A stretch of 61,753 bases of DNA from Escherichia phage vB_EcoS_SA126VB, in the sequence record OL960573.1; one strand, given 5' to 3'. Positions 2,115 through 55,277 of this stretch are shown here, piece after piece. Under the pieces are notes generated by a model. That model was not told the origin of the DNA, did no database searches, and saw only the letters and a list, made by a program, of their open reading frames with translations. Both the position numbers and the translations under genes were made by a program. The stretch's first letter is position 1; every line of letters begins with the position of its first letter.

Positions 2115-3611
2115 ATGGGTATTGATGCAACTCACCCGCTATATGATAAGTGGAAGGGTGCATGGGTCAAGTGCAACGACTGCTATGAGGGTGAAGATAA
2201 AATTAAGGAAGAAGGTGTTAAATATCTACCGCCTTTAGCTTCCATGATTATTGATGGGATGAATAATCCTGATGATTTGGGCTTTCAACGTTGGCTCGCT
2301 TATCGTCTGCGTGCTAACTTCCCTGACGATTATTCAAGTGCGGTTACAAACAATTTAGGCCTGCTGCACCAGAAGCCTCCTACAATCCAGCTTCCACCTG
2401 AAATGGAATACATGCGGGAGCTGTGTACTGCGGACGGTGAAGACATTATTGCTCTGCTACGTCGCATCAATGAAATGCAGTTAAAAAATGGACGTTTGGG
2501 CCTGCTGCTGGACTTACCTAAAGGTGAGGATGTAAATAACAGACCTTATATTAGCGTTTATGATGCTTTATCCATTATTAACTGGGATGATGGTAAAGAT
2601 GAATTGGGCAATATCAACTTGAACATGGTTGTTCTGGATGAAAGCGGTCCTGTACGTGTCAATCAGTTTGACTGGAAAGAAGAGAAGCGTTATCGCGTTC
2701 TACAATTGGGTCCAATGGACACAGATGAAGTTGCAGGTGGGGCGGTCTACTCCCAACATCTGTTTATTAACAATACCAATTATGATGAAGGGCAAATGAT
2801 TGCTCCTTATTATAAAGGTAATACGCTGGATGAAATTCCTTTCCAGTTTGTCAATACAACAGATATTACCCCAGCACCGGAAGCGCCGCCATTGTTGGGT
2901 CTTGCTAACATTTGTCTAAGCATGTACCGAAGTGACGCGGATTACCGCCAAAGCTTGCATATGCAGGGTCAGGACACCTTAGTCGTTGTTGGTGGTACTG
3001 GGGAGAATGGGGATAAAGCCCCTCAACGCATTGGCCCTGGCGCTGTCATTAACGTTGCTATTGGTGGTGACGCTAAATATGTAGGTGTTAGCGGTGACGG
3101 TTTGTCCGAGCAACGTCTCGCACTAGCTGCGGATAAGCAAGAAGCCCAAATTAAAGCCGGGCAAATGGTAAACAACACCAAGAGCACGCAGGAATCAGGC
3201 GAAGCTATGAAAACGCGTATTGCTGCGCGTACAGCTAGCCTGATTCGAATTGCGTATACTGGTGCGGCAGGTTTGGAAAACTTGCTGAAGGTTTGCGCTA
3301 AATGGATGGGTGCTGATCCAGAGAAAGTTGTGGTTAAGCCTAATCTTGAATTTACCAAGAGCATGTTTAACGGTCAGGACTTTGTTCAAATTATTACTGC
3401 ACGCAACCTTAAGGCTCCGATCAGCTTGCAGTCTATTCATGGCTGGCTTGTTGATCAGGGCTTAACCACACTAAGCTTTGAAGAAGAAATGGCAATTCTT
3501 GAGGAAGAGCTTAAGAAGTGGCCTCTGCCCGATGATGCTAAGGCTGATTTAAACGCAGAGCAGCAAGTAAACAAAGATCCTAAGGAAGACAACGCTTCCG
3601 ATAAAGAATAG
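2115..3611 (+). CDS. portal protein
   Basis: 498 aa directly after terL; GGAGGG RBS before ATG 2115; canonical position. Confidence 0.75.
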   Translation: MGIDATHPLYDKWKGAWVKCNDCYEGEDKIKEEGVKYLPPLASMIIDGMNNPDDLGFQRWLAYRLRANFPDDYSSAVTNNLGLLHQKPPTIQLPPEMEYMRELCTADGEDIIALLRRINEMQLKNGRLGLLLDLPKGEDVNNRPYISVYDALSIINWDDGKDELGNINLNMVVLDESGPVRVNQFDWKEEKRYRVLQLGPMDTDEVAGGAVYSQHLFINNTNYDEGQMIAPYYKGNTLDEIPFQFVNTTDITPAPEAPPLLGLANICLSMYRSDADYRQSLHMQGQDTLVVVGGTGENGDKAPQRIGPGAVINVAIGGDAKYVGVSGDGLSEQRLALAADKQEAQIKAGQMVNNTKSTQESGEAMKTRIAARTASLIRIAYTGAAGLENLLKVCAKWMGADPEKVVVKPNLEFTKSMFNGQDFVQIITARNLKAPISLQSIHGWLVDQGLTTLSFEEEMAILEEELKKWPLPDDAKADLNAEQQVNKDPKEDNASDKE

Positions 3612-8263: not shown

Positions 8264-8712
8264 TGCTGGGATACGATTTTATCAATGACGCATTTAATAA
8301 GATGCTACGCGAAGCCGTTGGACCGGATATAGGTATAGCGTGGAAGAACAAGAAGTTTACACCTAAAGCGAATCAGATGTGGTTAAAGGCAATCAATGCA
8401 CCTGCATCCACATACGCGGCAACGTTAGGTGATAACGGTCTGAATGAAATTCCAGGCTTCTACCAAATCACAGTATATAGTCCTTTAAACACTGGAACGT
8501 CTAAGCAGAATCAAATCTTGGATTCTATTCGGAAAAAGTTTAAACTGGGCTTGCGTATCCCGTGCCCGGATGACCACACGTTACGGATTGTCAGTTTAGA
8601 CTTTTCGCAAGGTGGACAAACTTCGCTGAACGATTTTACCAAAGGCGGGGTTGAAGATAACTGGGACGTTAACTTTATCACAATCTATTGGTCGGCTCGT
8701 GAGCCGAGGTAA
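8263..8712 (+). CDS. putative tail completion protein
   Basis: 149 aa, ATG overlaps previous stop; synteny. Confidence 0.4.
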   Translation: MLGYDFINDAFNKMLREAVGPDIGIAWKNKKFTPKANQMWLKAINAPASTYAATLGDNGLNEIPGFYQITVYSPLNTGTSKQNQILDSIRKKFKLGLRIPCPDDHTLRIVSLDFSQGGQTSLNDFTKGGVEDNWDVNFITIYWSAREPR

Positions 8713-8726
8713 GAGAGGATCTAAAT

Positions 8727-9650
8727 ATGGCTACAGGTTCACGTTATTCGTGTTACTACGTCAAAGAAGATGTAAGCAACACTACGCCAGCGAGCGCGAA
8801 GTTTACTCCGTTCCGTGTGACCAGTTCCGGTCTGGACATTAATATTGCAACGCTGGAATCTGAAGAACTGCGCGATGATGCGGAAACTGCGGACTTCCGC
8901 CTCGGTGCTCGCAGTGTTGAAGGTACAGTAACGGGCGAAATGTCCTTCGGCACCTTCGATGATCTTATTGCTGCTGCACTTCGTGGGGAGTGGCAAGACA
9001 ACGTCCTTAAAGGCGGTATTATCCGTCAGTCATTTACTTTCGTAGACTATAACGCAGATCTACCGTCAGGTAAATATACAATTTATCGCGGTTGCGAAGT
9101 TAATAGCATGACTTTCTCATTGTCTGCGGAAAACATGACCACAGTGGAATTCGGTATTGTTGGGCGCTCGATGGAAATTGCGGAATCGCTTCCATCTGGT
9201 GCAACTATCAAAGACCGTACAACTACGTCACCGATGGATGGTTTCTCCGGTCGCTTGCTGGAAAACAACGAAGAAATCAGCGTTATTACGGAAATCGGTC
9301 TTACCGTTGAAAACGATATTGCGCCACGCTTTGTTGTTGGTTCTAAGTTCTCCATTGAACCGTCCGCTGGTCGTCGTGCGGTAACTGGTACAGCTAACGT
9401 GTACTTCCTGGATAACAAGCTGCGTATGAAGTATCTGGATGAAGTGGAAACTTCAATCAAGTTTGATCTGATTGACCCAAGCAATCCGGAACAAAAATAC
9501 ACTGTGGAAATTCCTCGCGTGAAATTCACTGAAGCTCCGCGTCCTATTGACGGTGAAGGGGATATCATGCTTAATATGGGCTACCGCGGATTGCTGGACC
9601 CAGCAACCGCAAGTTCCATCAAAATTACCCGCGTTGTAGCGGGAGCCTAA
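8727..9650 (+). CDS. major tail (tube) protein
   Basis: 307 aa directly upstream of the chaperone and tape-measure genes; AGAGAGGAT RBS. Confidence 0.6.
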   Translation: MATGSRYSCYYVKEDVSNTTPASAKFTPFRVTSSGLDINIATLESEELRDDAETADFRLGARSVEGTVTGEMSFGTFDDLIAAALRGEWQDNVLKGGIIRQSFTFVDYNADLPSGKYTIYRGCEVNSMTFSLSAENMTTVEFGIVGRSMEIAESLPSGATIKDRTTTSPMDGFSGRLLENNEEISVITEIGLTVENDIAPRFVVGSKFSIEPSAGRRAVTGTANVYFLDNKLRMKYLDEVETSIKFDLIDPSNPEQKYTVEIPRVKFTEAPRPIDGEGDIMLNMGYRGLLDPATASSIKITRVVAGA

Positions 9651-9659
9651 GGATAAGAA

Positions 9660-10067
9660 ATGACCGACACCAAAAAAGCCAAAGTTGTAGTAGCTAAAAG
9701 CTTCCGTGATTTTAAAACTGTGAGCCGGGCTAACGACCCGGCAAACACTAAGCCAATGAATGTGGTTATTCCTGGTGTAGGCGACACTGGCGAAAAACTC
9801 TACATTCGTAGCCGCTACTGCACAGAGTATCGTGACGCGGAATTGAAAGCACAACGTCAACTGTTAGCACTTATGCAGGGCAAAGACGGTGAAGTAACAG
9901 ATGCTATGAAGGAAGACATCCTTACCCGTTCACTGTGCAACCTTGTAGCGGGATGGACGTTTGACGAGCCGCCAACTGTTGACAACGTGTTTGAGTTCTT
10001 AACGGAGAACCCAACTGTCCGAGAAGACCTTAACGTATTTGCCGCTAAAGATAGTAATTTTTTCTAA
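9660..10067 (+). CDS. tail assembly chaperone (G-like, frame-0 product)
   Basis: 135 aa between tail tube and tape measure; ends DSNFF* on a slippery run. Confidence 0.6.
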   Translation: MTDTKKAKVVVAKSFRDFKTVSRANDPANTKPMNVVIPGVGDTGEKLYIRSRYCTEYRDAELKAQRQLLALMQGKDGEVTDAMKEDILTRSLCNLVAGWTFDEPPTVDNVFEFLTENPTVREDLNVFAAKDSNFF

Positions 10068-10465
10068 AAGCGCGCAGACAGTTAATTGATAAGAAGATCC
10101 TCCAATGGGAACTAAATAGCAAAGTCCCCGGCGGGGGATCTTCTTTATTATCGCAACTGCAAAAGGTTGAGGAACAGTCTGGTAAGACGCCACCTAAGCT
10201 TAAAGAATATCGGGAAAAGGAAATACCGCTTTGCTTCGAATATCTATCTACTTTATTTGATGATATCTACACTGGAGGAGATTTTAGTTATACAGAATTG
10301 CACAGCTATCAAGTGACAATGGGCTTACATCTTCAACCGTACGAATGCGAAATACTGCGGCAGCTATGGCTTGAAAAGCGCGTGTCAGAAGCTGAACAAA
10401 ATGCTAAACTCATGGAAAGTCAAATGCAAAATCAAAATAAAGGTAGAAGAAAAAGGAGAAGATAA
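9660..10465 (+). CDS. tail assembly chaperone GT-like fusion product via -1 frameshift
   Basis: -1 frame read by hand from 10058: FFLKARRQLIDKKILQWELNSKVPGGGSSLLSQLQKVEEQSGKTPPKLKEYREKEIPLCFEYLSTLFDDIYTGGDFSYTELHSYQVTMGLHLQPYECEILRQLWLEKRVSEAEQNAKLMESQMQNQNKGRRKRRR*; stop overlaps tape-measure ATG. Confidence 0.55.
10058..10064 (+). promoter_or_regulatory. -1 programmed ribosomal frameshift slippery heptamer T_TTT_TTC
   Basis: X_XXY_YYZ heptamer in frame 0 at the 3' end of the chaperone ORF; -1 frame is open from 10058 to the TAA at 10463-10465. Confidence 0.6.
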
Positions 10466-13400
10466 TGGCCGAAACCGCTTCGCTAGTAATCAGAGTTGAC
10501 GCGAGAGGGATTAGTACCGCGGACTCTATGTTGCGGAACTTAGCGCGTACAGGTGACACAGCGGAGCGGTCCGCTCAACGTGTTACCTCCAGCTATAAAA
10601 CATTGTCTAACACATCTAACGAGCTTGCAACTGTCACAAGTCGTTTGGACGCTGCAATTGTAGGCATGGTTAGCGTTGACACTATTAGCCGTGTTATATC
10701 GCTGTCTGACTCCTGGACCATCCTTACCAACAAACTTGAACTGGCTCGTACGGGTAATGAAACCGTTGCAGATGCGCAGCAACGCGTGTTTGATATTGCC
10801 CAGCGTTCTCGTACAAGCTTAGAAGCGACTGCAACTCTGTACTCCCGTCTCCAGCGTGCGATGAAGAATACTGGTATGACAGGGATGGAGCTTGGACGCA
10901 TTACCGAAACAATTAACAAAGCAATGATTGTTTCCGGTGCAACATCCCATGAAGCAAGTGCTGCCCTTATTCAGTTTTCGCAAGCAATGGCATCCGGTGT
11001 TCTGCGTGGGGAGGAATACCGCTCTGTTGCAGAACAAGCGCCGCGCTTAACTCAAATCATGTCCGATTCGTTAGGCGTTACCATTGGACAATTGCGTGAG
11101 CTGGCGTACAGCGGAAAGTTAACAGCCGATGTGGTTATCAAATCGTTGTCTGGTGCTGCGGATACAATTGATAAAGAATTTAGCCGCACTATGCCAACGT
11201 TCAACCAGCAATGGACAGTTGCAACAAACAACCTGACTAAGTTTATGGGCGAATCCCAAAAGACTCAAGGTGCGGTCGCTGCATTGGGACAGACGTTTGT
11301 TGCATTATCCGAAAACTTAGGAACGGTTGTAACGGTTGGTTCAGCTTTAGCCACAGTAATTACCGCCCGTATCATTACGGCAATGCTTGCTAAGACTAAA
11401 GCGTCTATAGCTGCTGCAAAAGCATCTCAGATGGAAGCTGCACAAACTGCGGCAACTACGGCGGTGATGCAAAGCTCCATTGGCATTACTGCACAAAAAG
11501 CGGCTGCGGACCGTGCTGCTTCCCTTGCATCTTTGCAGGTTGCACGCGGTGCGTTAGCGGTTGCTAAGGGTACGGCAGCGGAAGCGGGTGCTCGCCTTGC
11601 ACTTATTAACGCTACCCGTGCGCATTCTGCGGCAATTATGGCGGACGTACAAGCGCGGCAAGCGCTCAATGCTGCGCTTAATGCAACTGTACCAGCCGCA
11701 AGCCGGGCAGCTACAGCAATGAGCGTGCTGCGCGGTGCTATGGGGTTAATTGGCGGTCCTGTTGGTGTAGCAATGCTGGCAGCGGGTGCAATTTACTCCT
11801 ATAAAGCGTCATTGGAAGCTGGTCGTGCGGAAAACAATCAGTTTGCGGATAGTGTTGATACTGTACGCGATAAACTGATGCAGATGACAGAAGCTCAGTT
11901 GGCAGCTAACGCAGTTAAAGCTCGCGCAATTCTCCCCGAACTTGAAGAGCAAATGAAGCGGGAGCAAACTGCTCTTAAATCTGCAACGGAAACGCAGAAG
12001 TTCTATGAAGCACAATTAAAACGTCGTGCTGCGTCCGGTCGTGATACAGCCAGTGCTGAAAAGAATTTACAAATTGCAACGGATAACGTCAAGCTTGCTG
12101 CGGAGCGTGCTGAAGAAGCTCAACGCCGTTACAACAATGTCTTAGAAATGACAAGCCCTGCTATCGAGAAGATAATTCCGTTAGCTCGTCAGCTTGCTGC
12201 TGATATGAAGGCTGTTCTTAGCATCAAATCCGGTCCGCTTATTGACGAGAAAGTGCTTGATCGTTTTAAAGGTCAGTTAGGTGACGTTAACCGTGAAATT
12301 GACGTCAACACGGTTAAAGGTGCTGGTAACGCTCGTCAGGCTGCAATCCTTAGTGGACTGTATCAAACTCTGGGCAAAGATGCAGACACCTACGGAAGTC
12401 TAATTCGCAAAGTAGCTATGGGACAGGATGTTAGCTCTGAAGCGACAAGCGAGTCCGCAAAAGAACTTGTTAAATATGCTCAAGAGCTAGCGGAAGCTTA
12501 CGGCAAGAATTATGATCTCGAGGAAGCGGAGAGGAACCGAACTAAAGCGACAAAAGACGGTATTAAAGCAGAACAACAGAACGCCAAAGTTATTGACGAT
12601 TTACGGAACAAGCTTAACGAAGTAACCACAGGGGTTAAGGAAAACGCCAAAGCTAAAGCTCAAGCTGTGGCACTTAATAAGCTCAATGCGTCTGCAACGG
12701 CTGCGGAAAAAGCGGAAGTTGTTAGTCTTGCTGCTGCAATCTACGATGCAGAAGAAGCTCAAAAGAAACTGGACGAACGTAAAAAGAATCGTAAGTTTGC
12801 GCAGGGTCTATTGGATGAAGGTATGACGGACTATGAAAAAATCGCGTACGAGCAAAATACTAAGATTGCTGAGCTTACTGCTAAACAACGAGCGGATGAC
12901 CTAGCTTACTATCAACTTTATGAGGATGCCAAAACTCAAGTCCTGAAGAAAGCAAGCATGGAAAGGGAAAATCTGGATAAAGTTCTTATGAACCGAATGA
13001 TATCCTTTTCTCAGGAATCCTTGGGTATTATACTGTCAGGGCTGGAAGAAGGTGTTAGTAAACAGAACTTTATTTATAAGGCAATGTTTGCTGCACAGAA
13101 AGCAATGCAAATCCCATCAATCCTTGCTAACACGGAGACCGCAGCATCTGCGGCGCTTGCGTGGGGTACACAGCAAGGCGGTGCTACAATGGGCGCGGCT
13201 ATGGCTGGAATTGTTAAAGCTATGGGTTATGCGTCCGCTGCTACTGTGGGTGGCTTAGCAATCGCTGGCATGGCACACGATGGTATTGATAATGTTCCAC
13301 GCGAAGGTACATGGTTATTGGATAAAGGTGAACGCGTACTTAATGCTCCGTCTAATGACAAGTTAAACCGCTTCCTGGATAGCCAAGCTTCACAACAAGG

Positions 13401-13581
13401 TGGCGTGAATATGTCTGGTGGTGTTAGCATTGTCCAGTATATCACGGTGCAAGGGAATGGCGATGCTGCACTCACGCAAGCCATGCAGCAAGCGGCTCGT
13501 GATGGTGCGGAGCAGGGATATAATAAAGTTCTTACAGACTTTGCATCCCGAGGAACAATTCGTAGAACTGCAATGGGGTAA
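10465..13581 (+). CDS. tail tape measure protein
   Basis: 1038 aa, Ala-rich helical sequence, immediately after chaperone/frameshift. Confidence 0.85.
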   Translation: MAETASLVIRVDARGISTADSMLRNLARTGDTAERSAQRVTSSYKTLSNTSNELATVTSRLDAAIVGMVSVDTISRVISLSDSWTILTNKLELARTGNETVADAQQRVFDIAQRSRTSLEATATLYSRLQRAMKNTGMTGMELGRITETINKAMIVSGATSHEASAALIQFSQAMASGVLRGEEYRSVAEQAPRLTQIMSDSLGVTIGQLRELAYSGKLTADVVIKSLSGAADTIDKEFSRTMPTFNQQWTVATNNLTKFMGESQKTQGAVAALGQTFVALSENLGTVVTVGSALATVITARIITAMLAKTKASIAAAKASQMEAAQTAATTAVMQSSIGITAQKAAADRAASLASLQVARGALAVAKGTAAEAGARLALINATRAHSAAIMADVQARQALNAALNATVPAASRAATAMSVLRGAMGLIGGPVGVAMLAAGAIYSYKASLEAGRAENNQFADSVDTVRDKLMQMTEAQLAANAVKARAILPELEEQMKREQTALKSATETQKFYEAQLKRRAASGRDTASAEKNLQIATDNVKLAAERAEEAQRRYNNVLEMTSPAIEKIIPLARQLAADMKAVLSIKSGPLIDEKVLDRFKGQLGDVNREIDVNTVKGAGNARQAAILSGLYQTLGKDADTYGSLIRKVAMGQDVSSEATSESAKELVKYAQELAEAYGKNYDLEEAERNRTKATKDGIKAEQQNAKVIDDLRNKLNEVTTGVKENAKAKAQAVALNKLNASATAAEKAEVVSLAAAIYDAEEAQKKLDERKKNRKFAQGLLDEGMTDYEKIAYEQNTKIAELTAKQRADDLAYYQLYEDAKTQVLKKASMERENLDKVLMNRMISFSQESLGIILSGLEEGVSKQNFIYKAMFAAQKAMQIPSILANTETAASAALAWGTQQGGATMGAAMAGIVKAMGYASAATVGGLAIAGMAHDGIDNVPREGTWLLDKGERVLNAPSNDKLNRFLDSQASQQGGVNMSGGVSIVQYITVQGNGDAALTQAMQQAARDGAEQGYNKVLTDFASRGTIRRTAMG

Positions 13582-13584
13582 TAT

Positions 13585-14169
13585 ATGCTCACTTGGCCCG
13601 AAGAGCTTAGACCATCGGAAATGGAATGGTATCTAGTTTCAAACGCTGTAGAATTTACAAGTCCCTTCAATGGGGCTTCCCAAACTGTGTCATATCCCGG
13701 ATCTCGTTGGGAAGCGACACTGACATTTAGCAACTTAAATGACTGGCAATCCAGAAAGCTTGAATCAACGTTAGCTAAACTTGATGGCAAAGCTGGTCGC
13801 ATTATGCTTCAGGATTTTGGTCGCTGGGGTAGGCCTCCAATGGGATTACCTGTGGTTAATGGTGCAAATAACACTGGGACAACTTTATCAACTAAGGGTT
13901 GGACTCCTGAACGTAAGGTATTATGGGAAGGGGACTATATCGCAGTAAACAATGAATTAAAATTGATAACAGAAGATGCTTGGAGTGATTCTTCTGGTAA
14001 CGTGATTTTAAACATTGCCCCAATGTTAAGAAGCATCCCTCCAAACGGTGCGAAGATTGAAACTCAGAAACCCCAAGGATCTTTCCGTTTAGCCGAAAAC
14101 ACAAATGGAGTTAAACGTCAACCTGCATTTAATAACTCCTTTACTTTAAAATTTTCGGAGGCATTCTAA
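13585..14169 (+). CDS. putative distal/minor tail protein
   Basis: 194 aa directly after tape measure; synteny with lambda-like M/L region. Confidence 0.5.
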   Translation: MLTWPEELRPSEMEWYLVSNAVEFTSPFNGASQTVSYPGSRWEATLTFSNLNDWQSRKLESTLAKLDGKAGRIMLQDFGRWGRPPMGLPVVNGANNTGTTLSTKGWTPERKVLWEGDYIAVNNELKLITEDAWSDSSGNVILNIAPMLRSIPPNGAKIETQKPQGSFRLAENTNGVKRQPAFNNSFTLKFSEAF

Positions 14170-15162: not shown

Positions 15163-17801
15163 TGCCACCAGCAATAATTGGAGCAGCAATAGCTTTAGGT
15201 GCTTCCGCTGCCGCTGCGGCGGGGTGGATTGCTACGGGCGTAGCTTTGGCTATTGGTATGGCTGCAACTGCGGCGGGTGCTCTTTTAACTAAGACACCTA
15301 ATATGAACTTTAATGCTTATAAAGGTCAACAAGAGCGTAAACAGGTTTTACGAGCAGCCGCAGCATCTCGAACAGTAGTGTATGGCACAACGGTTGCTTC
15401 CGGTGTTATGACGTTTGCCGAGGAGCAGCCTGGAGATCAGGACGAAGACGAACTCCTGCATATGGCTCTTGTTGTAGCTTCACATCCATTGGAGGGAATT
15501 GGTGATATTTGGCTTGGGGATGACCTTGTACAGACTTTCGAACAGTATGTCACTTGGGAATTTCATAATGACCGTCAGACGGTAGACCCTTTCATGCTAA
15601 ACAACTGTCCTTCATGGAAAGAAGATATGATTGGGAAAGGGATTGCCTGGCTTCGTATTAGTTTTAAGTTTAATGCAGAAAAATTCCCGTCTGGCTTGCC
15701 AAACATTAAGCTTCTTAAAAGAGGTCGCCGTGTATATGATCCTCGTTCTGGTTATACCATATTCAGCGATAATGCAGCGTTAGTGATACTTGATTACTTC
15801 CGCACGTATTTAAAGCGCAAAGATGAAGATATTAACTGGGACCAATTCAAAGAAGCGGCTAACATCTGTGATGAATACGTCAATAACGCTGATGGTTCTA
15901 CAGAGCGCCGTTATAAAATCAACGGTGAATTTGAAGTAGATGAAGCCCCATCCAAAATTCTGGATGCTATGTTGCAAGCATGTGGTGGCGAGCTAACGTA
16001 TGTAGCGGGTAAACACGGCCTTCTGGTTGGCGCATATTACGGCCCAGCAACAATGACGCTGGACGAAAGTTGTATTGCTGGGGATATTAAAATTGTTCCA
16101 GAGACTTCTTATAAGGAGCGCACCAACACCATTACAGGGACGTTTATTGATCCGAAGCAGAACTATGTTGAGGCGGACTTTCCTCCAGTTGTGGTCAAGG
16201 AATGGGTGGAAAAAGATGGCGGTGAAATAACTCAGGACATGGATTTCCGATTTGTAACAAGTGAATATCAAGCCCAACGTTTATCTAATATTATTCTACG
16301 TCGTAAACGTGTTGGGCGCACAATTGAAATCCCTTGTAACATGAAGGGTTATAAGTTCCGTCCAGGAATGTATGTAAAAGTTACCATCACGCAGATTGGC
16401 ATGAAGAATGTTGAAATGCGCGTTACCAAATGGTCTTTTAACCCTAAAGGTGGGGTTAACCTTACCTTACGTCAAGATTTCCTGGAAATGTGGGACGATG
16501 CAATTGGTAAACCTATGGACCGGCCGGATCTTGTAGACTTGCCAAGTGGTGGTGTTGCTCAACCTCAAAATCTTCAATACCAGATATTGCAGATTAGTGA
16601 TGTGGTACAGGGGGTATTATCCTGGACCAACATGGGGCAAGTTGCATATAACCGCGTAGCTGTGCGACAGGGAGGCGTTACTATTTGGACCGCACAAGTC
16701 CCTGGCCAAAGCGTTCGTGTCACTGGGTTGCTGCGTGGGGCGTATACTGCGCACGTTCAAGCTGTATCGCACAGTGGAGCAATATCACCGGAAGCTTATT
16801 TGGAGTTTAATATTCAAGCTCCACCGCCACCTTCATCTGTTGAGATACAGAACGGTTATTTTTCTTTAACTCTTATACCAAAGATTGCAGAGCTCACTAG
16901 TGTTAGCACACAATTTGATTTCTGGACGTCTGGTGAAACAAAACTGCCGTCTGCTAATACAGATGTTGTTGAGCGCGATGCGACCCGTGAAGGTATGGGA
17001 ACTATATGGCAGAAAAATAACTTACTCAATGACCACACTTATTACTGGTATGTAAGAACTATCAATGCCTTTGGGTCGTCCGCGTTTGTGGAAGTTGAAG
17101 CTCGTGTATGGGCAGAAACTGCACAGATCATAGAAATTATGGATAAAGAGTTTCAAGAAACTGAAACTTTCAAAAACCTTATGGAGACTGTGCAAAAGGT
17201 TGATGACGGTGTAACGGAATTGTCCAAAGTAGTTGAAGGACAAGCTACAAAAATTGAATCGGTTCAGAGTAGTGTGGGTGATGTTGTTGTTACCGTGCAA
17301 GAGCAATCGCAAGCACTAGCAGATCTTAATGGCAAACTTTCTGCTCAATGGGGACAAAAGGTTCAAATAGACAATGATGGCAACAAATACGTTGCAGGTA
17401 TGCAGTTAGGTATTGAAGGTAGCGGAGGACAATTCCAGTCTTACTTTATGGTGAGCGCTGATAACTTTGCTATTTATAATCCTGTAGCGGGAGCAGCACA
17501 GCTTGCTTTTGCTATTAAAAACGGTCAAAGTTTCTTACAAGAAGCTTTTATTGAAAACGGATCGATTACCAACGCTAAGATTGGTAATGTTATCCAGTCC
17601 AATAACTGGAATGGTAACGATCAAGGTTGGGCAATTACAAAAGACGGTTATTGCGTATTTAATAACGTAACCGTCAGAGGGACAGTTGTTGCTAACGCTG
17701 GTCAATTTGGTTTCAATGGAAATGGAGGTATTACAATTGATAGTAACGGTATTCGTGTTCCGCTATCAGGTGGTGGTGTTGTCATAGTGGGACGCTGGTA
17801 A
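15162..17801 (+). CDS. tail tip / host specificity protein (J-like)
   Basis: About 880 aa after minor tail genes; ATG 15162 overlaps previous stop (TAATG), track start 15150 is TTG. Confidence 0.6.
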   Translation: MPPAIIGAAIALGASAAAAAGWIATGVALAIGMAATAAGALLTKTPNMNFNAYKGQQERKQVLRAAAASRTVVYGTTVASGVMTFAEEQPGDQDEDELLHMALVVASHPLEGIGDIWLGDDLVQTFEQYVTWEFHNDRQTVDPFMLNNCPSWKEDMIGKGIAWLRISFKFNAEKFPSGLPNIKLLKRGRRVYDPRSGYTIFSDNAALVILDYFRTYLKRKDEDINWDQFKEAANICDEYVNNADGSTERRYKINGEFEVDEAPSKILDAMLQACGGELTYVAGKHGLLVGAYYGPATMTLDESCIAGDIKIVPETSYKERTNTITGTFIDPKQNYVEADFPPVVVKEWVEKDGGEITQDMDFRFVTSEYQAQRLSNIILRRKRVGRTIEIPCNMKGYKFRPGMYVKVTITQIGMKNVEMRVTKWSFNPKGGVNLTLRQDFLEMWDDAIGKPMDRPDLVDLPSGGVAQPQNLQYQILQISDVVQGVLSWTNMGQVAYNRVAVRQGGVTIWTAQVPGQSVRVTGLLRGAYTAHVQAVSHSGAISPEAYLEFNIQAPPPPSSVEIQNGYFSLTLIPKIAELTSVSTQFDFWTSGETKLPSANTDVVERDATREGMGTIWQKNNLLNDHTYYWYVRTINAFGSSAFVEVEARVWAETAQIIEIMDKEFQETETFKNLMETVQKVDDGVTELSKVVEGQATKIESVQSSVGDVVVTVQEQSQALADLNGKLSAQWGQKVQIDNDGNKYVAGMQLGIEGSGGQFQSYFMVSADNFAIYNPVAGAAQLAFAIKNGQSFLQEAFIENGSITNAKIGNVIQSNNWNGNDQGWAITKDGYCVFNNVTVRGTVVANAGQFGFNGNGGITIDSNGIRVPLSGGGVVIVGRW

Positions 17802-35632: not shown

Positions 35633-36436
35633 TTACAAGCCGTTCAGGGCTTCCGGTACTGGCATAGGCACGCGACCAGTTATACCATTGAACTTCTTCC
35701 AACGTGCATACTGAGTTTTAACAGTATCTTCGTTCAGACCGTGACGACCTGCCAGATTCAGGACATAAGAGATCGGAGCAGGCTGACCCAGTGTAGCGCT
35801 AATCTGATCCATCAGAGCCCAGGCACGACCGCAGGAAGTTTCAGGTTGCGGACGACGAACACCATTCTGTTCCGGCATACGGTTCGCTTCTTTCGCTTTC
35901 ACACGTTCAGCTTTTTCGCGGGCTTTTTCAGCAGCCTTTTCAGCCTGTTTAGCAGCGCGGATCTTGTCTTTGAAGCTTTTAATAGACGAATCCAGTTCGT
36001 CAACCATGCTCTGAGCAGCAGTTACTGCACCGGACAGATCTTCGCCTTTGGATTTTTTAACAACTGCTTTCAGCTCTTTCAGAGCATTCTTTAAATGCTT
36101 CAGCTGTTCAGAACCCTTAGATTCTGCTTCCGTAATCTGTTCAACAGTGCTTTCATCGGTAATACCGGATAAAGCAAACTTCACGGTTTCAACTGCCTGG
36201 GAAAGAGCGGTAAATTTATTTTCCGCTTCAGTACGGATTTCAGCTTGTTTCTTTTCAGCGGCAGCTTTTTTCTCTGCTTCTTTTTTCTCTTTTGCTACGC
36301 GTGCAGCTTCAGCGGCAGCGGCTTTTTTAGCTTCTGCGTCGTTAGCAGTAGCTTCTTTCTTTGCAGGCTTAGCAGATTTTGCAGCGGCAGCAGCGGCTGC
36401 GGCAGCAGCGGCTTTCTTATCTTCAATATTACTCAT
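35633..36436 (-). CDS. Ala/Lys-rich protein with basic low-complexity N-terminus
   Basis: ATG 36436 with GGAG RBS (track start is GTG); N-terminal AAAAAAAAAAAKSAKPAKKE...; globular C-terminus. Confidence 0.5.
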   Translation of the reverse strand: MSNIEDKKAAAAAAAAAAAKSAKPAKKEATANDAEAKKAAAAEAARVAKEKKEAEKKAAAEKKQAEIRTEAENKFTALSQAVETVKFALSGITDESTVEQITEAESKGSEQLKHLKNALKELKAVVKKSKGEDLSGAVTAAQSMVDELDSSIKSFKDKIRAAKQAEKAAEKAREKAERVKAKEANRMPEQNGVRRPQPETSCGRAWALMDQISATLGQPAPISYVLNLAGRHGLNEDTVKTQYARWKKFNGITGRVPMPVPEALNGL

Positions 36437-40069: not shown

Positions 40070-40936
40070 TTACTGCTGCCACGGCGGGACTGCTGCTTGT
40101 GCCGGATGCGGTTCAGCTTGCTGCTGCGGCTGAGCTTGCTGCTGAGGTGCTGCTGCCTGGCCAGGCTGTGCTACCTGCTGCGCCCACGGCTGCTGAGCTG
40201 CTTCCGGTGCTACTGGCTGTTGTACCGGAGCTTGCTGCACTGGCTGCTGCGGTGCTGCATTTTGAGCAGGGTTATCCCACGGTTGCGGTGCTGCATTCTG
40301 CCACGGTTGAGCTGCTGCGCCCTGCTGCGGTGCTGGTTGCTGAACAGGCTGCTGAACTGGCTGCGGTTGCTGTACAGGCGCTTGCTGTTGCTGAGCAAAC
40401 GGGTTAGCCGCTGGTTGCTGCGGTGCTGCGCCCGGGAAAGCTGGCTGCTGTGCTGGCGCACCTGCACCGAACGGGTTAGCTACTGCTGCTTGAGCACCCA
40501 TTGCTGGAACACCTGCTTCTTTTTCTGCATACTTAACCGGATCGTTGATGTTAGCATAACCGTTAGGTTCGTTGCTGTCTTCATAACCTTCCTGAGAACG
40601 AACTTTCAGACGCAGGTTCAGCGGAATGTTATGCAGTTGAGCAGGAGTATCCCAGCGGATTACGCCTACAGCATGGGAAAGAGCGCCCAGTTGCTCGTAA
40701 GCAATACGCACAGTATCTTCGTTGTCGTTGATAACGTTGTAACGAGCAAAGATTTTACGACCTTTAGCAAAACCATCAATGATGCTAAACGTTACCTGGA
40801 TCGCCATACCGCCATTTTTGGTCGGTTTAAATTCAGATGTTTCAATTACTGCTTTATACCAACCTTTCGGCAATGCGCCGTAAGAAGGTGCTTGATAGCT
40901 GCTCGCGTCAAAGTGGAAATTAGTTGGCATAGTCAT
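40070..40936 (-). CDS. putative ssDNA-binding protein with long Gln/Pro/Ala-rich C-terminal tail
   Basis: Globular N-terminal ~130 aa then ~150 aa of PVQQP/AAPQQP repeats; position between RecA-like ATPase and exonuclease. Confidence 0.4.
   Translation of the reverse strand: MTMPTNFHFDASSYQAPSYGALPKGWYKAVIETSEFKPTKNGGMAIQVTFSIIDGFAKGRKIFARYNVINDNEDTVRIAYEQLGALSHAVGVIRWDTPAQLHNIPLNLRLKVRSQEGYEDSNEPNGYANINDPVKYAEKEAGVPAMGAQAAVANPFGAGAPAQQPAFPGAAPQQPAANPFAQQQQAPVQQPQPVQQPVQQPAPQQGAAAQPWQNAAPQPWDNPAQNAAPQQPVQQAPVQQPVAPEAAQQPWAQQVAQPGQAAAPQQQAQPQQQAEPHPAQAAVPPWQQ
40080..40500. repeat. low-complexity CAGCAGCC/GCTGCTG-type coding repeat (encodes the Q/P/A tail)
   Basis: Reiterated cagcagcc/ctgctg units visible directly; generates long spurious antisense ORFs. 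Confidence 0.8.
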
Positions 40937-52525: not shown

Positions 52526-53140
52526 TTATGCGTCCAGTCCGTTGTATTTGCGCCAGGCGTAGAACTGAATGGCAACTGTTGTCCCGTTGTAAGAAGGCAT
52601 TGCCGTTTTCATTTCTTTCAGCTCCGGCGTGCGGCCCAGTTCGGCTAAAAGTTTGTCGCCCATTGCCCACACTTCGGCGGTTTTTCCTTTCAGCGGCTTG
52701 CGAGCGCCATTTTTGAAATCACAGCGAGCAGCTTTTGCATCCTGTTTTGGCGCGGCAGCTTTTGGCTCTTCAATTTTGATTTCAGAAACCTGCGTGGCAG
52801 CTTTTGCATGTTTCATATCTTTCTCTTCCTCCTGCTCCAGAGCTTCGAGGCAGCTTTTGACGATTTCCGGATTTACCATCGGGCGCAGTACCGAGACGCT
52901 GGCAGCTGGCGCGGCGGTCGGTGCTGGGACTTTCTGCTCCGGCTGTTGCGCTTTTTTATGGTCGCGCAGCACCTGAAGCACTTCCTTCTCAACGATGTAA
53001 AAACCAATCTCGTCCTGATGGATAAGCTGTTCGTGTGCGTCGCGTGCAACCTGGCCCCAGCGGGTCTTAAGGGCGCGGCGTGCATTCGTTTTCATGGTGT
53101 AGCGCATTTTGTCCTGTTCGCGGTGGGTTACTTTAGACAT
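52526..53140 (-). CDS. hypothetical protein
   Basis: ATG 53140 with AAGGAG RBS; about 204 aa. Confidence 0.45.
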   Translation of the reverse strand: MSKVTHREQDKMRYTMKTNARRALKTRWGQVARDAHEQLIHQDEIGFYIVEKEVLQVLRDHKKAQQPEQKVPAPTAAPAASVSVLRPMVNPEIVKSCLEALEQEEEKDMKHAKAATQVSEIKIEEPKAAAPKQDAKAARCDFKNGARKPLKGKTAEVWAMGDKLLAELGRTPELKEMKTAMPSYNGTTVAIQFYAWRKYNGLDA

Positions 53141-54712: not shown

Positions 54713-55277
54713 GGCACACAGCAGCACCACAGCGGGCTAAAGCTCAAAGGTAATGGTAATGCATTACCAACACACAACGAGCACGTTGTACCCCACAAAG
54801 CGGCGCTAATTTCAATGCTCACAGGCTGTACGTTAACGCGTACGGCCTGCTCTGCTATATGTGCGCCATGTATATAGCCAGCTCACAATATGCATCAATA
54901 TAATGACGAATGAAATAGATTCGTTTGGAAGAATAACGGATCTTACAGTCACAGACCGGTCCAATGAGCCGACTCATAGACCCCACCTAGGATCATCAGG
55001 GTACTAATAATCACACGAGGGCGCCTTATCCATCCTGATAGTAAGTCCTTGTCTAAATCTCACCTGTCACATTCCTATCCACCTACATCCATAACCCCAC
55101 CTACCTTCTTTTTGAATATATTGCGCTCATCCTTTCTAAATATATGGATTTTGGTAGTAAATTCTGAGTCGTCAACGTATAATTCGTCTTGTAGCTGCTC
55201 CATAGCTACCATCTTTAAGCGGATGCAACCAATTTCTATCAATTCACACCTGTTTTTAGAGCATCAAGGAGGTATTT

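What the first reader, a model, noticed from the sequence alone, without database searches (positions are those of the whole stretch)
10058..10465. Programmed -1 frameshift producing a G/GT-type tail assembly chaperone
The chaperone ORF ends ...AAT TTT TTC TAA, placing a canonical slippery heptamer T_TTT_TTC at 10058-10064. I translated the -1 frame by hand: it stays open for about 135 codons and stops at a TAA that overlaps the tape-measure ATG (TAATG). The ORF track misses it because the -1 frame has no start codon of its own.
Basis: seen in the sequence. Interest (0 to 1): 0.5.

Follow-up and report, generated by a model that had tools for sequence, protein, structure and literature searches.

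The report
Phage tail chaperone programmed −1 frameshift
This is the well-known ribosomal slip that lets a tailed phage make a short and a long version of its tail-assembly chaperone from one gene; it is real here, but it is already annotated in a near-identical phage, so it is ordinary.

Summary
ORF 9660..10067 (135 aa) ends AAT TTT TTC TAA. The heptamer T_TTT_TTC (10058-10064) is in X_XXY_YYZ register. The −1 frame opens exactly at 10058 and closes at TAA 10463-10465, which overlaps the tape-measure ATG. The only place a −1 shift can join the two frames is the heptamer itself.

The window is a Seuratvirus (Queuovirinae) coliphage. GenBank records of phages Seurat and SA80RD already annotate this joined 'tape measure chaperone' CDS with ribosomal slippage at the same site.

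Gene order is tail tube, G, T, tape measure. The T part hits Pfam Phage_TAC_18, and PHROG 569 covers G and T contiguously. About 60 related loci keep the architecture and an in-register T-rich slip motif at about 25-35% protein identity. Within the genus, substitutions fall on the third codon position of the −1 frame.

One addition: a stable stem-loop (10087-10150) lies 22-26 nt downstream. It exceeds synonymous-codon controls only at this position in most lineages tested, and 10029-10158 has a single variable site in 12 genomes. It is probably part of the signal, but its spacing is not canonical and its role is untested.

Verdict: confirmed, already known, low interest.

The parts
8727..9650 (+). 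Tail tube (major tail) protein gene, 307 aa, immediately upstream of the chaperone gene
   Evidence: PF18906 Phage_tube_2, E 2.5e-41; phrog_290
9660..10067 (+). G-like tail assembly (tape measure) chaperone ORF, 135 aa, 15.2 kDa; the product of standard 0-frame decoding. An SD-like AAGGA lies at 9649-9653.
   Evidence: phrog_569 profile 11-126 (E 7e-26) and phrog_313 'Tail assembly chaperone' (E 3.6e-11). Variable sites by codon position in 12 genomes: 13/5/71.
10058..10064 (+). Slippery heptamer T_TTT_TTC (U_UUU_UUC) in X_XXY_YYZ register. It is the only stretch where the 0 frame and the −1 frame are both open.
   Evidence: Conserved in register in Seurat-, 9g-, Vid5-, PSTCR7- and Kpn2-P2-like phages and in IMG/VR loci. 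U_UU.U_UU.C is an experimentally frameshift-prone heptamer in E. coli (PMC4066793).
10065..10067 (+). 0-frame TAA stop of G, directly 3' of the heptamer
   Evidence: The adjacency is shared with the 9g- and Kpn2-P2-like clades but is not universal: 3 to 46 nt further downstream in Vid5, K4PH164 and PSTCR7.
10064..10465 (+). T-like −1-frame extension: 133 codons plus TAA (10463-10465). It is read after the slip to give GT, 268 aa and 30.9 kDa, from 9660..10064 joined to 10064..10465. Junction peptide: DSNFFLK.
   Evidence: PF23812 Phage_TAC_18 at GT residues 170-239, 36.9 bits against a cut-off of 27. phrog_569 profile 130-256, E 4.8e-47. tblastn homology starts at the first residue after the slip. 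Gapless protein alignment from column 1. Variable sites by codon position of frame 2: 7/6/36.
10087..10150 (+). Conserved RNA stem-loop downstream of the slip site. The main 13-bp stem pairs 10091-10103 with 10133-10145, with an inner stem and a loop around 10114-10122. It is a candidate stimulatory or regulatory element.
   Evidence: about −29 to −34 kcal/mol; z −3 against shuffles. Top 0.3% of 70-nt windows in the 61.7-kb window. Excess stability over synonymous-codon randomisation (z −2.7 to −4.4 at the +25 window) confined to windows starting at +13 to +37 in 7 lineages, with the flanking windows (+1, +49) also negative in some; at about +13 in 7 of 9 loci of the remote environmental clade. 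Three pairs with compensatory change between the 9g and Kpn2-P2 clades.
10029..10158 (+). Nucleotide-invariant island covering the end of G, the heptamer, the spacer and the stem-loop
   Evidence: 12 Seuratvirus genomes, 87-98% identical overall, show one variable site here (10120, in the hairpin loop). About 14 would be expected per 90 nt from the rest of T; Poisson P about 1e-5.
10465..13581 (+). Tape measure protein gene, 1038 aa. Its ATG overlaps the stop of T (TAATG). Its SD AAGGAG (10453-10458) lies inside the Arg/Lys-rich C-terminal tail of T.
   Evidence: PF20155 TMP_3, E 5.5e-59; phrog_339, E 1.7e-177; sequence

Best explanation
A programmed −1 ribosomal frameshift in the tail assembly (tape measure) chaperone gene of a Seuratvirus siphophage. 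Most ribosomes translating 9660..10067 terminate at TAA 10065 and release the 135-aa G-like chaperone. This decoding is shown by the sequence. A minority slip back one base while the two tRNA-Phe sit on UUU-UUC of U_UUU_UUC. They re-pair on UUU-UUU, read CUA next, and continue for 133 codons to TAA 10463. That would yield a 268-aa GT-like fusion. The slip is inferred from frame geometry, homology and conservation. By analogy with lambda gpG/gpGT (PMC5009743), the shared G part should bind the tape measure protein. The T part should recruit the tail tube protein, so the slip rate would fix the G:GT ratio needed to assemble the tail. This functional step is inferred. The heptamer alone gives only about 0.1% frameshifting in E. 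coli reporters. The conserved stem-loop at 10087-10150 is therefore the most likely cis element that raises or tunes the rate. That link is inferred, and the spacing is not canonical.
For: Geometry: the 0 frame and the −1 frame overlap only across the heptamer. Synteny: tail tube, G, T, tape measure. Homology: PF23812 Phage_TAC_18 in T; phrog_569 spans G and T contiguously; homology to distant relatives begins at the first codon after the slip, about 78 codons before the first possible start codon. Conservation: all 11 GenBank and 49 IMG/VR loci examined keep the G ORF, the −1 extension and the short overlap. They carry TTTTTTC, TTTTTTA/TTTAAAG or N_NNT_TTT in register. Coding signature: 36 of 49 variable sites in the extension are at the third position of the −1 frame. 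Motif competence: UUUUUUC gives 0.12% frameshifting without a stimulator, 0.89% with the IS911 stimulator and 7.6% with the IS3 pseudoknot in E. coli (PMC4066793 supplement). It belongs to the efficient H_HH.U_UU.Y class. Prior annotation: Seurat KM236243 and SA80RD OL960575 carry a two-piece joined 'tape measure chaperone' CDS with a ribosomal slippage note at the homologous position. Cis element.
Against: I found no protein-level evidence for GT in this phage group; the Seurat genome announcement only lists a 'tape measure chaperone'. The heptamer alone is barely above background in reporters. The stem-loop starts 22-26 nt after the heptamer rather than the canonical 5-9 nt. No upstream SD-like stimulator is visible. 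A stop codon directly 3' of a U-rich heptamer lowered frameshifting in an E. coli reporter (Horsfield 1995 as summarised in PMC4373837). No common hairpin register exists across all clades; RNAalifold finds no consensus structure. No hit to any other Pfam family at E up to 1, so no link to lambda gpG/gpT by sequence.
Confidence: 0.9

Rival explanations
1. Transcriptional slippage. RNA polymerase adds one extra U on the T6 run (10058-10063). A fraction of mRNAs then encode GT by standard decoding, with the same protein sequence.
For: The site is a homopolymeric T run: 6 T here and 7 T in 9g-, Kpn2-P2- and K4PH164-like phages. UUUUUUU runs are avoided in E. coli genes, possibly because of transcriptional slippage (PMC4066793).
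Against: The motif is always in X_XXY_YYZ register with the 0 frame, which does not matter for a polymerase. In remote relatives the run shrinks to 4-5 T (C_AAT_TTT, G_GTT_TTT, A_CTT_TTT) while the in-frame A-site T_TTT tetramer is kept. From general knowledge, bacterial RNA polymerase slippage usually needs runs of about 8-9 or more.
Confidence: 0.04
2. No fusion is made. The T region is translated on its own from an internal or non-canonical start, as many GenBank records annotate it (48- to 70-aa fragments from ATG 10319 or TTG 10298), or by termination-reinitiation.
For: Several records annotate separate short ORFs: GottfriedDienst, CSP1C, Skure and KS_A8. In 9g-, Vid5- and PSTCR7-like phages a start codon lies 26-45 nt after the G stop.
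Against: In this genus the first ATG/GTG/TTG in frame 2 is 78 codons into the conserved extension. Such a start would drop invariant blocks such as SGKTP. Homology and third-position substitution bias run from the first codon after the heptamer. The phrog_569 profile is a contiguous G+T protein. No SD precedes the rare AUU or AUC codons at 10085 and 10097.
Confidence: 0.04
3. A chance open frame next to a chance T run, with no second product.
For: The region is AT-rich and T runs are common; 72 in-register heptamers occur in long ORFs of the window.
Against: Only 1.5% of positions have a −1 frame this long. The extension has significant Pfam and PHROG matches. It is conserved as protein at 25-40% identity across about 60 loci.
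Confidence: 0.01

Closest known systems
Escherichia phage Seurat CPT_Seurat13/14 (KM236243.1) and vB_EcoS_SA80RD SA80RD_14/15 (OL960575.1): annotated 'tape measure chaperone' with ribosomal slippage
   Same: Same genus, with 94-96% nucleotide identity over 8700-11000. The T extension matches Seurat at 100% over the 127 aligned residues and SA80RD at 98.4%. The heptamer and its flanks are identical. The joined CDS has the same span, and Seurat's slippage note (10236) maps to about window position 10061.
   Different: Nothing of substance. Those annotations are computational, and the Seurat paper does not discuss the frameshift. Most other records of the genus miss it.
Bacteriophage lambda gpG/gpGT (Levin 1993; Xu, Hendrix & Duda 2004, 2013, 2014; reviewed in PMC5009743)
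   Same: A gene pair between the major tail gene and the tape measure gene. A −1 slip near the 3' end of G yields a G-T fusion. The expected role is a chaperone pair at a fixed low GT:G ratio (for lambda; for this locus).
   Different: The lambda heptamer is G_GGA_AAG, decoded by tRNA-Lys (from general knowledge); here it is U_UUU_UUC, decoded by tRNA-Phe. Here the 0-frame stop abuts the heptamer. There is no detectable sequence relation to lambda gpG/gpT: PF23812 was the only significant Pfam family. A conserved downstream stem-loop is present here.
Canonical bacterial −1 PRF cassettes (E. coli dnaX; IS911 and IS3 transposases)
   Same: An X_XXY_YYZ heptamer plus a downstream RNA structure. 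U_UU.U_UU.C is one of the heptamers used by IS elements.
   Different: Those stimulators begin about 5-9 nt after the heptamer and are often helped by an upstream SD. Here the main stem begins 26 nt after the heptamer (22 nt for the extended helix), and no upstream SD-like sequence is present.
Phage P2 E/E' tail chaperone frameshift (T_TTT_TTG; recalled from Christie et al. 2002, not checked here)
   Same: A T-run heptamer in a tail chaperone gene upstream of the tape measure gene; a −1 shift.
   Different: P2 is a myovirus with a different protein family. PMC5009743 notes that P2-like phages differ in the arrangement. The comparison rests on memory.

Membership tests
Conserved G/GT-type tail assembly chaperone frameshift of long-tailed dsDNA phages (Xu, Hendrix & Duda 2004 class) | The gene pair lies between the major tail (tube) gene and the tape measure gene | tested here: met
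   8727..9650 = PF18906 Phage_tube_2; 10465..13581 = PF20155 TMP_3
Conserved G/GT-type tail assembly chaperone frameshift of long-tailed dsDNA phages (Xu, Hendrix & Duda 2004 class) | The second ORF overlaps the 3' end of the first in the −1 frame and has no initiation site of its own at its conserved N-terminus | tested here: met
   The −1 frame opens at 10058. The first ATG/GTG/TTG is at 10298. Homology starts at codon 1 of the extension.
Conserved G/GT-type tail assembly chaperone frameshift of long-tailed dsDNA phages (Xu, Hendrix & Duda 2004 class) | A slippery sequence in the correct register inside the overlap, conserved among relatives | tested here: met
   T_TTT_TTC at 10058-10064 is the whole overlap. 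It is conserved in 11 GenBank and 49 IMG/VR loci, with variants.
Conserved G/GT-type tail assembly chaperone frameshift of long-tailed dsDNA phages (Xu, Hendrix & Duda 2004 class) | Both G and GT are made, at a low fixed GT:G ratio; both are needed for tail assembly and absent from virions | not testable with these tools
   Needs proteomics, reporter assays and genetics. No published data were found for Seuratvirus.
Pfam PF23812 Phage_TAC_18 / PHROG 569 | Sequence match above the curated threshold | tested here: met
   PF23812: 36.9 bits against a cut-off of 27, GT residues 170-239. phrog_569: E 7e-26 for G and 4.8e-47 for T, with contiguous profile coordinates.
Lambda gpG / gpT sequence families (Pfam families for lambda minor tail proteins G and T; accessions recalled, not checked) | Detectable sequence similarity to the lambda proteins | tested here: not met
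   hmmscan of GT against all of Pfam-A at E up to 1 returned PF23812 as the only tail-related family; the two other matches (GST_C_3, Metallophos_3, E 0.15) are unrelated and below their cut-offs. The PDB sequence search found nothing relevant.
Canonical −1 PRF cassette (dnaX / IS3 type) | X_XXY_YYZ heptamer that allows both tRNAs to re-pair | tested here: met
   U_UUU_UUC. Reporter frameshifting was 0.12%, 0.89% and 7.6% with no stimulator, the IS911 stimulator and the IS3 stimulator.
Canonical −1 PRF cassette (dnaX / IS3 type) | Stimulatory stem-loop or pseudoknot beginning about 5-9 nt after the heptamer | tested here: not met
   A conserved stem-loop exists, but its main stem starts 26 nt after the heptamer (22 nt for the extended helix). 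In the other loci examined the strongest predicted helices begin about +18 to +43 from the first base of the heptamer (+62 for the outermost pair in PSTCR7).
Canonical −1 PRF cassette (dnaX / IS3 type) | Upstream SD-like stimulator (optional feature) | tested here: not met
   No GGAGG-like sequence in the 20 nt before the heptamer (GCCGCTAAAGATAGTAA)

The most novel reading that the evidence does not exclude
The conserved stem-loop 20-30 nt downstream of the slip site could be a genuine frameshift regulator that acts at a non-canonical distance. It might do so through a trans-acting factor (for example a phage protein binding the hairpin, as cardiovirus 2A does) or through an unrecognised long-spacer mechanism. 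In that case the G:GT ratio in this widespread chaperone family (Phage_TAC_18 / PHROG 569) would be set by an RNA element and not by the heptamer alone. The evidence shows selection on RNA structure at this position in most lineages tested. It does not show what the structure does.
Probability: 0.3. Interest if true: 0.45.

Novelty: already known. Interest (0 to 1): 0.2.

Why it matters
For annotation, the window should carry a joined CDS (9660..10064, 10064..10465) for a 268-aa GT chaperone. Most deposited Seuratvirus and Nonagvirus genomes lack it, or name G a 'tail length tape measure protein'. The biology is textbook, so the finding itself does not change understanding. The modest added value is the downstream RNA structure, which is under selection at synonymous sites across a broad chaperone family. 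The heptamer alone gives about 0.1% frameshifting in E. coli. This makes the family a convenient natural test case for how phage G/GT signals reach their working ratio.

Tried and rejected
1. A single consensus structure for all clades. RNAalifold on the gapless codon-register alignment gave none. The hairpins occupy the same codons but in slightly different registers. Only the 9g and Kpn2-P2 clades share a register.

2. Rfam. Only sub-threshold generic hairpin (miRNA-like) matches on the opposite strand.

3. Intrinsic terminator. The scan flags 10124-10139 plus a T-rich tail. The T tract is not conserved in 9g-, Kpn2-P2- or K4PH164-like phages, so this is rejected as the conserved role.

4. 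Strand assignment of the hairpin by G·U content or by plus- versus minus-strand energy. Inconclusive.

5. The idea that the adjacent stop codon stimulates slippage. The literature I could read reports the opposite in an E. coli reporter, and the adjacency is not universal.

6. A ribosome-collision model for the long spacer. The distances do not fit consistently across lineages (my own reasoning), so I dropped it.

7. Other heptamers in the window. The one at 14145 precedes the next gene, which has its own ATG, and 52952 lies among overlapping ORFs on both strands; 36212 was not examined.

8. PDB and NCBIfam sequence searches with GT. Only noise-level Rof matches.

9. I did not run the large protein-database searches or structure prediction. 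The verdict did not depend on them.

Full report
**Observation.**
- ORF 9660..10067 (135 aa) ends ...GAT AGT AAT TTT TTC TAA.
- T_TTT_TTC occupies 10058-10064 in X_XXY_YYZ register, and the 0-frame stop is at 10065-10067.
- Frame 2 (the −1 frame) has stops at 10031, 10046, 10052 and 10055, then none until TAA 10463-10465.
- The last A of that TAA is the A of the ATG of a 1038-aa ORF (10465..13581).
- The two frames are therefore both open only across the seven bases of the heptamer.
- The first ATG/GTG/TTG in the −1 frame is the TTG at 10298, which is why the mechanical ORF list shows only a 55-aa fragment.

A −1 slip would give a 268-aa, 30.9-kDa fusion, against 15.2 kDa for the 0-frame product. 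The junction peptide would be DSNFFLK.

ORFs of at least 100 aa in the window hold 72 in-register heptamers. Three others are also followed by a −1 frame of more than 100 codons. At 14145 the −1 frame is the next gene, which has its own ATG; 52952 lies among overlapping ORFs on both strands; I did not examine the third, at 36212.

**Context.** The window is a Seuratvirus (Queuovirinae) coliphage. Bases 8700-11000 are 92-98% identical to GottfriedDienst, CAjan, Seurat and about 30 other records. The flanking genes are a tail tube protein (8727..9650, PF18906) and a tape measure protein (10465..13581, PF20155).

The fused protein hits Pfam PF23812, Phage_TAC_18, in its T part, with 36.9 bits against a cut-off of 27. 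PHROG 569, a 256-position profile, aligns to the G ORF at positions 11-126 and to the −1 extension at positions 130-256. The family is therefore built from contiguous G+T proteins. No other Pfam family reached E 0.1; the two listed at E 0.15 are unrelated and below their cut-offs. No solved structure is detectable by sequence.

**Already annotated.** Phage Seurat (KM236243.1) carries a two-piece joined CDS, 'tape measure chaperone', spanning the homologous G plus T interval. Its note 'ribosomal slippage (10236)' maps to about window position 10061. SA80RD (OL960575.1) does the same.

The other records I opened annotate only G, or G plus a short 3' fragment of T: GottfriedDienst, CSP1C, Skure, CAjan RefSeq and KS_A8. 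Several name G a 'tail length tape measure protein', which is the label carried by PHROG 569. The Seurat genome announcement lists a tape measure chaperone but does not discuss the frameshift.

**Comparative evidence.** A tblastn search with the extension finds 86 phage records. In Nonagvirus (9g, JenK1) and other relatives with about 35% identity, the alignment starts at the first residue after the slip. A protein alignment of seven diverged extensions is gapless from column 1.

All 11 GenBank loci and 49 IMG/VR loci keep the same layout: an upstream ORF of about 125-185 codons, a short overlap, and a −1 extension of 105-154 codons. In the GenBank loci whose stop region I printed, the extension ends at or near the tape measure start. 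The slip motif, always in register, varies as follows:
- TTTTTTC in Seurat-, 9g-, Vid5-, PSTCR7- and Kpn2-P2-like phages.
- TTTTTTA overlapping TTTAAAG in K4PH164-like phages.
- A_AAT_TTT, or imperfect N_NNT_TTT, in a remote environmental clade. There only the A-site T_TTT tetramer persists.

In PSTCR7 the heptamer lies 46 nt before the 0-frame stop. The conserved feature is therefore the heptamer and not the adjacent stop.

Within 12 Seuratvirus genomes, variable sites by codon position are 13/5/71 in G (0 frame) and 7/6/36 in the extension (−1 frame). The −1 frame is thus under purifying selection as protein.

**Mechanism.** U_UU.U_UU.C belongs to the class of heptamers most prone to −1 slippage in E. 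coli (H_HH.U_UU.Y), and IS elements use it (PMC4066793). Measured frameshifting was 0.12% without a stimulator, 0.89% with the IS911 stimulator and 7.6% with the IS3 pseudoknot (supplement).

Both codons are read by tRNA-Phe, which can re-pair perfectly one base back. The next codon in the new frame is CUA. [quoted passage not shown] G binds the tape measure protein and T binds the major tail protein (PMC5009743). I infer the same division of labour here from synteny and family membership. It is not shown.

**A downstream RNA element.** Because the heptamer alone is weak, I looked for a stimulator. A stem-loop spans 10087-10150. Its 13-bp main stem pairs 10091-10103 with 10133-10145. Four independent lines indicate selection on it.
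1. It is among the 0.3% most stable 70-nt windows of the whole 61.7-kb sequence.
2. I re-drew codons at random while keeping the protein and the codon usage. In seven lineages with 45-57% nucleotide identity here, the real sequence folds 2.7-4.4 sd more stably than these controls at the window starting +25, and the excess is concentrated in windows starting +13 to +37 after the heptamer. Most other windows in G and T scatter around zero, with a few isolated exceptions. In the remote environmental clade, seven of nine loci show the same signal at about +13.
3. In 12 Seuratvirus genomes, 10029-10158 has a single variable site, 10120, in the loop. About 14 would be expected per 90 nt (P about 1e-5).
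4. The 9g and Kpn2-P2 clades share a register. There, 95% of cells are paired, against 26-56% when the partner is slid, and three pairs show double-sided compensatory change.

Against a simple reading: the main stem begins 26 nt after the heptamer (22 nt for the extended helix) rather than the canonical 5-9 nt. The registers differ between clades, so RNAalifold finds no common structure. Rfam has nothing. The terminator-like T tract seen here is not conserved. I conclude that the structure is real and linked to the recoding site. Its role as stimulator, attenuator or something else is untested.

**Rivals.**
- Transcriptional slippage on the T run would give the same protein. It does not explain the strict register or the persistence of a 4-5-T motif in remote relatives.
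- Independent initiation of T cannot produce the conserved N-terminal 78 codons in this genus.
- Chance is excluded by homology and conservation.

**Verdict.** The feature is an ordinary, already annotated member of the conserved tail-chaperone frameshift class. The only new element is the evidence for a conserved, unusually spaced downstream stem-loop.

Noticed in passing
window 10087-10150 (arms 10091-10103 / 10133-10145); same codons in L005-L010, L016-L033: A stable stem-loop lies 22-26 nt downstream of the slippery heptamer. It shows excess stability over synonymous-codon controls concentrated at this position in most lineages tested, and compensatory changes between the 9g and Kpn2-P2 clades. 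The spacing is non-canonical for a −1 PRF stimulator.
   Followed up: yes
window 10029-10158 (and, more weakly, 10032-10616): A nucleotide-invariant island: one variable site (10120) in 12 Seuratvirus genomes that are otherwise 87-98% identical. In the four longest loci the whole T region and the first 150 nt of the tape measure gene are also unusually invariant, which the hairpin alone does not explain.
   Followed up: partly
relatives: NC_028776 (CAjan), NC_028831 (slur01), NC_024146 (9g), NC_042120 (Vid5), NC_071001 (PSTCR7): The G chaperone ORF is named 'tail length tape measure protein' in RefSeq and Pharokka-style annotations. This is the label of PHROG 569, whose profile is in fact a fused G+T chaperone. 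Most records lack the joined CDS or annotate 48- to 70-aa fragments of T.
   Followed up: partly
L006 692-701; L016, L018, L019 892-901 (L028 has TTTTTTAAAC): The K4PH164-like clade carries two overlapping in-register slippery heptamers, T_TTT_TTA and T_TTA_AAG (TTTTTTAAAG), instead of TTTTTTC.
   Followed up: no
L035-L056 (IMG/VR environmental contigs), overlap regions: In the remote clade of the same chaperone family the P-site half of the heptamer is degenerate (C_AAT_TTT, G_GTT_TTT, A_CTT_TTT). Only the A-site T_TTT tetramer is conserved. Seven of nine loci in this clade (seven of eleven when L034 and L057 are counted) still show excess downstream RNA structure starting at about +13.
   Followed up: partly
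L011 (Escherichia phage vB_EcoS_HdK1, MK373794) about 1000-1094: The T frame departs from the 9g sequence after about codon 105 and ends without the usual TAATG overlap. The tape measure gene is annotated as a short 'tape measure domain protein'. This is a possible indel or assembly error in that record.
   Followed up: no
window + strand: 11491-11570, 3186-3255, 52861-53100, 54801-54870, 40096-40490, 15186-15270: These are other 70-nt windows with predicted folding energy at or below −30 kcal/mol, stronger than the frameshift hairpin. They were not examined. The 52.5-53.3 kb region is also full of overlapping ORFs on both strands.
   Followed up: no
window 10440-10467: The tape measure gene's SD (AAGGAG, 10453-10458) and its start codon are embedded in the codons for the Arg/Lys-rich C-terminal tail of T (KGRRKRRR), with a TAATG stop-start overlap. 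Ribosomes finishing GT could therefore couple into tape measure translation.
   Followed up: no
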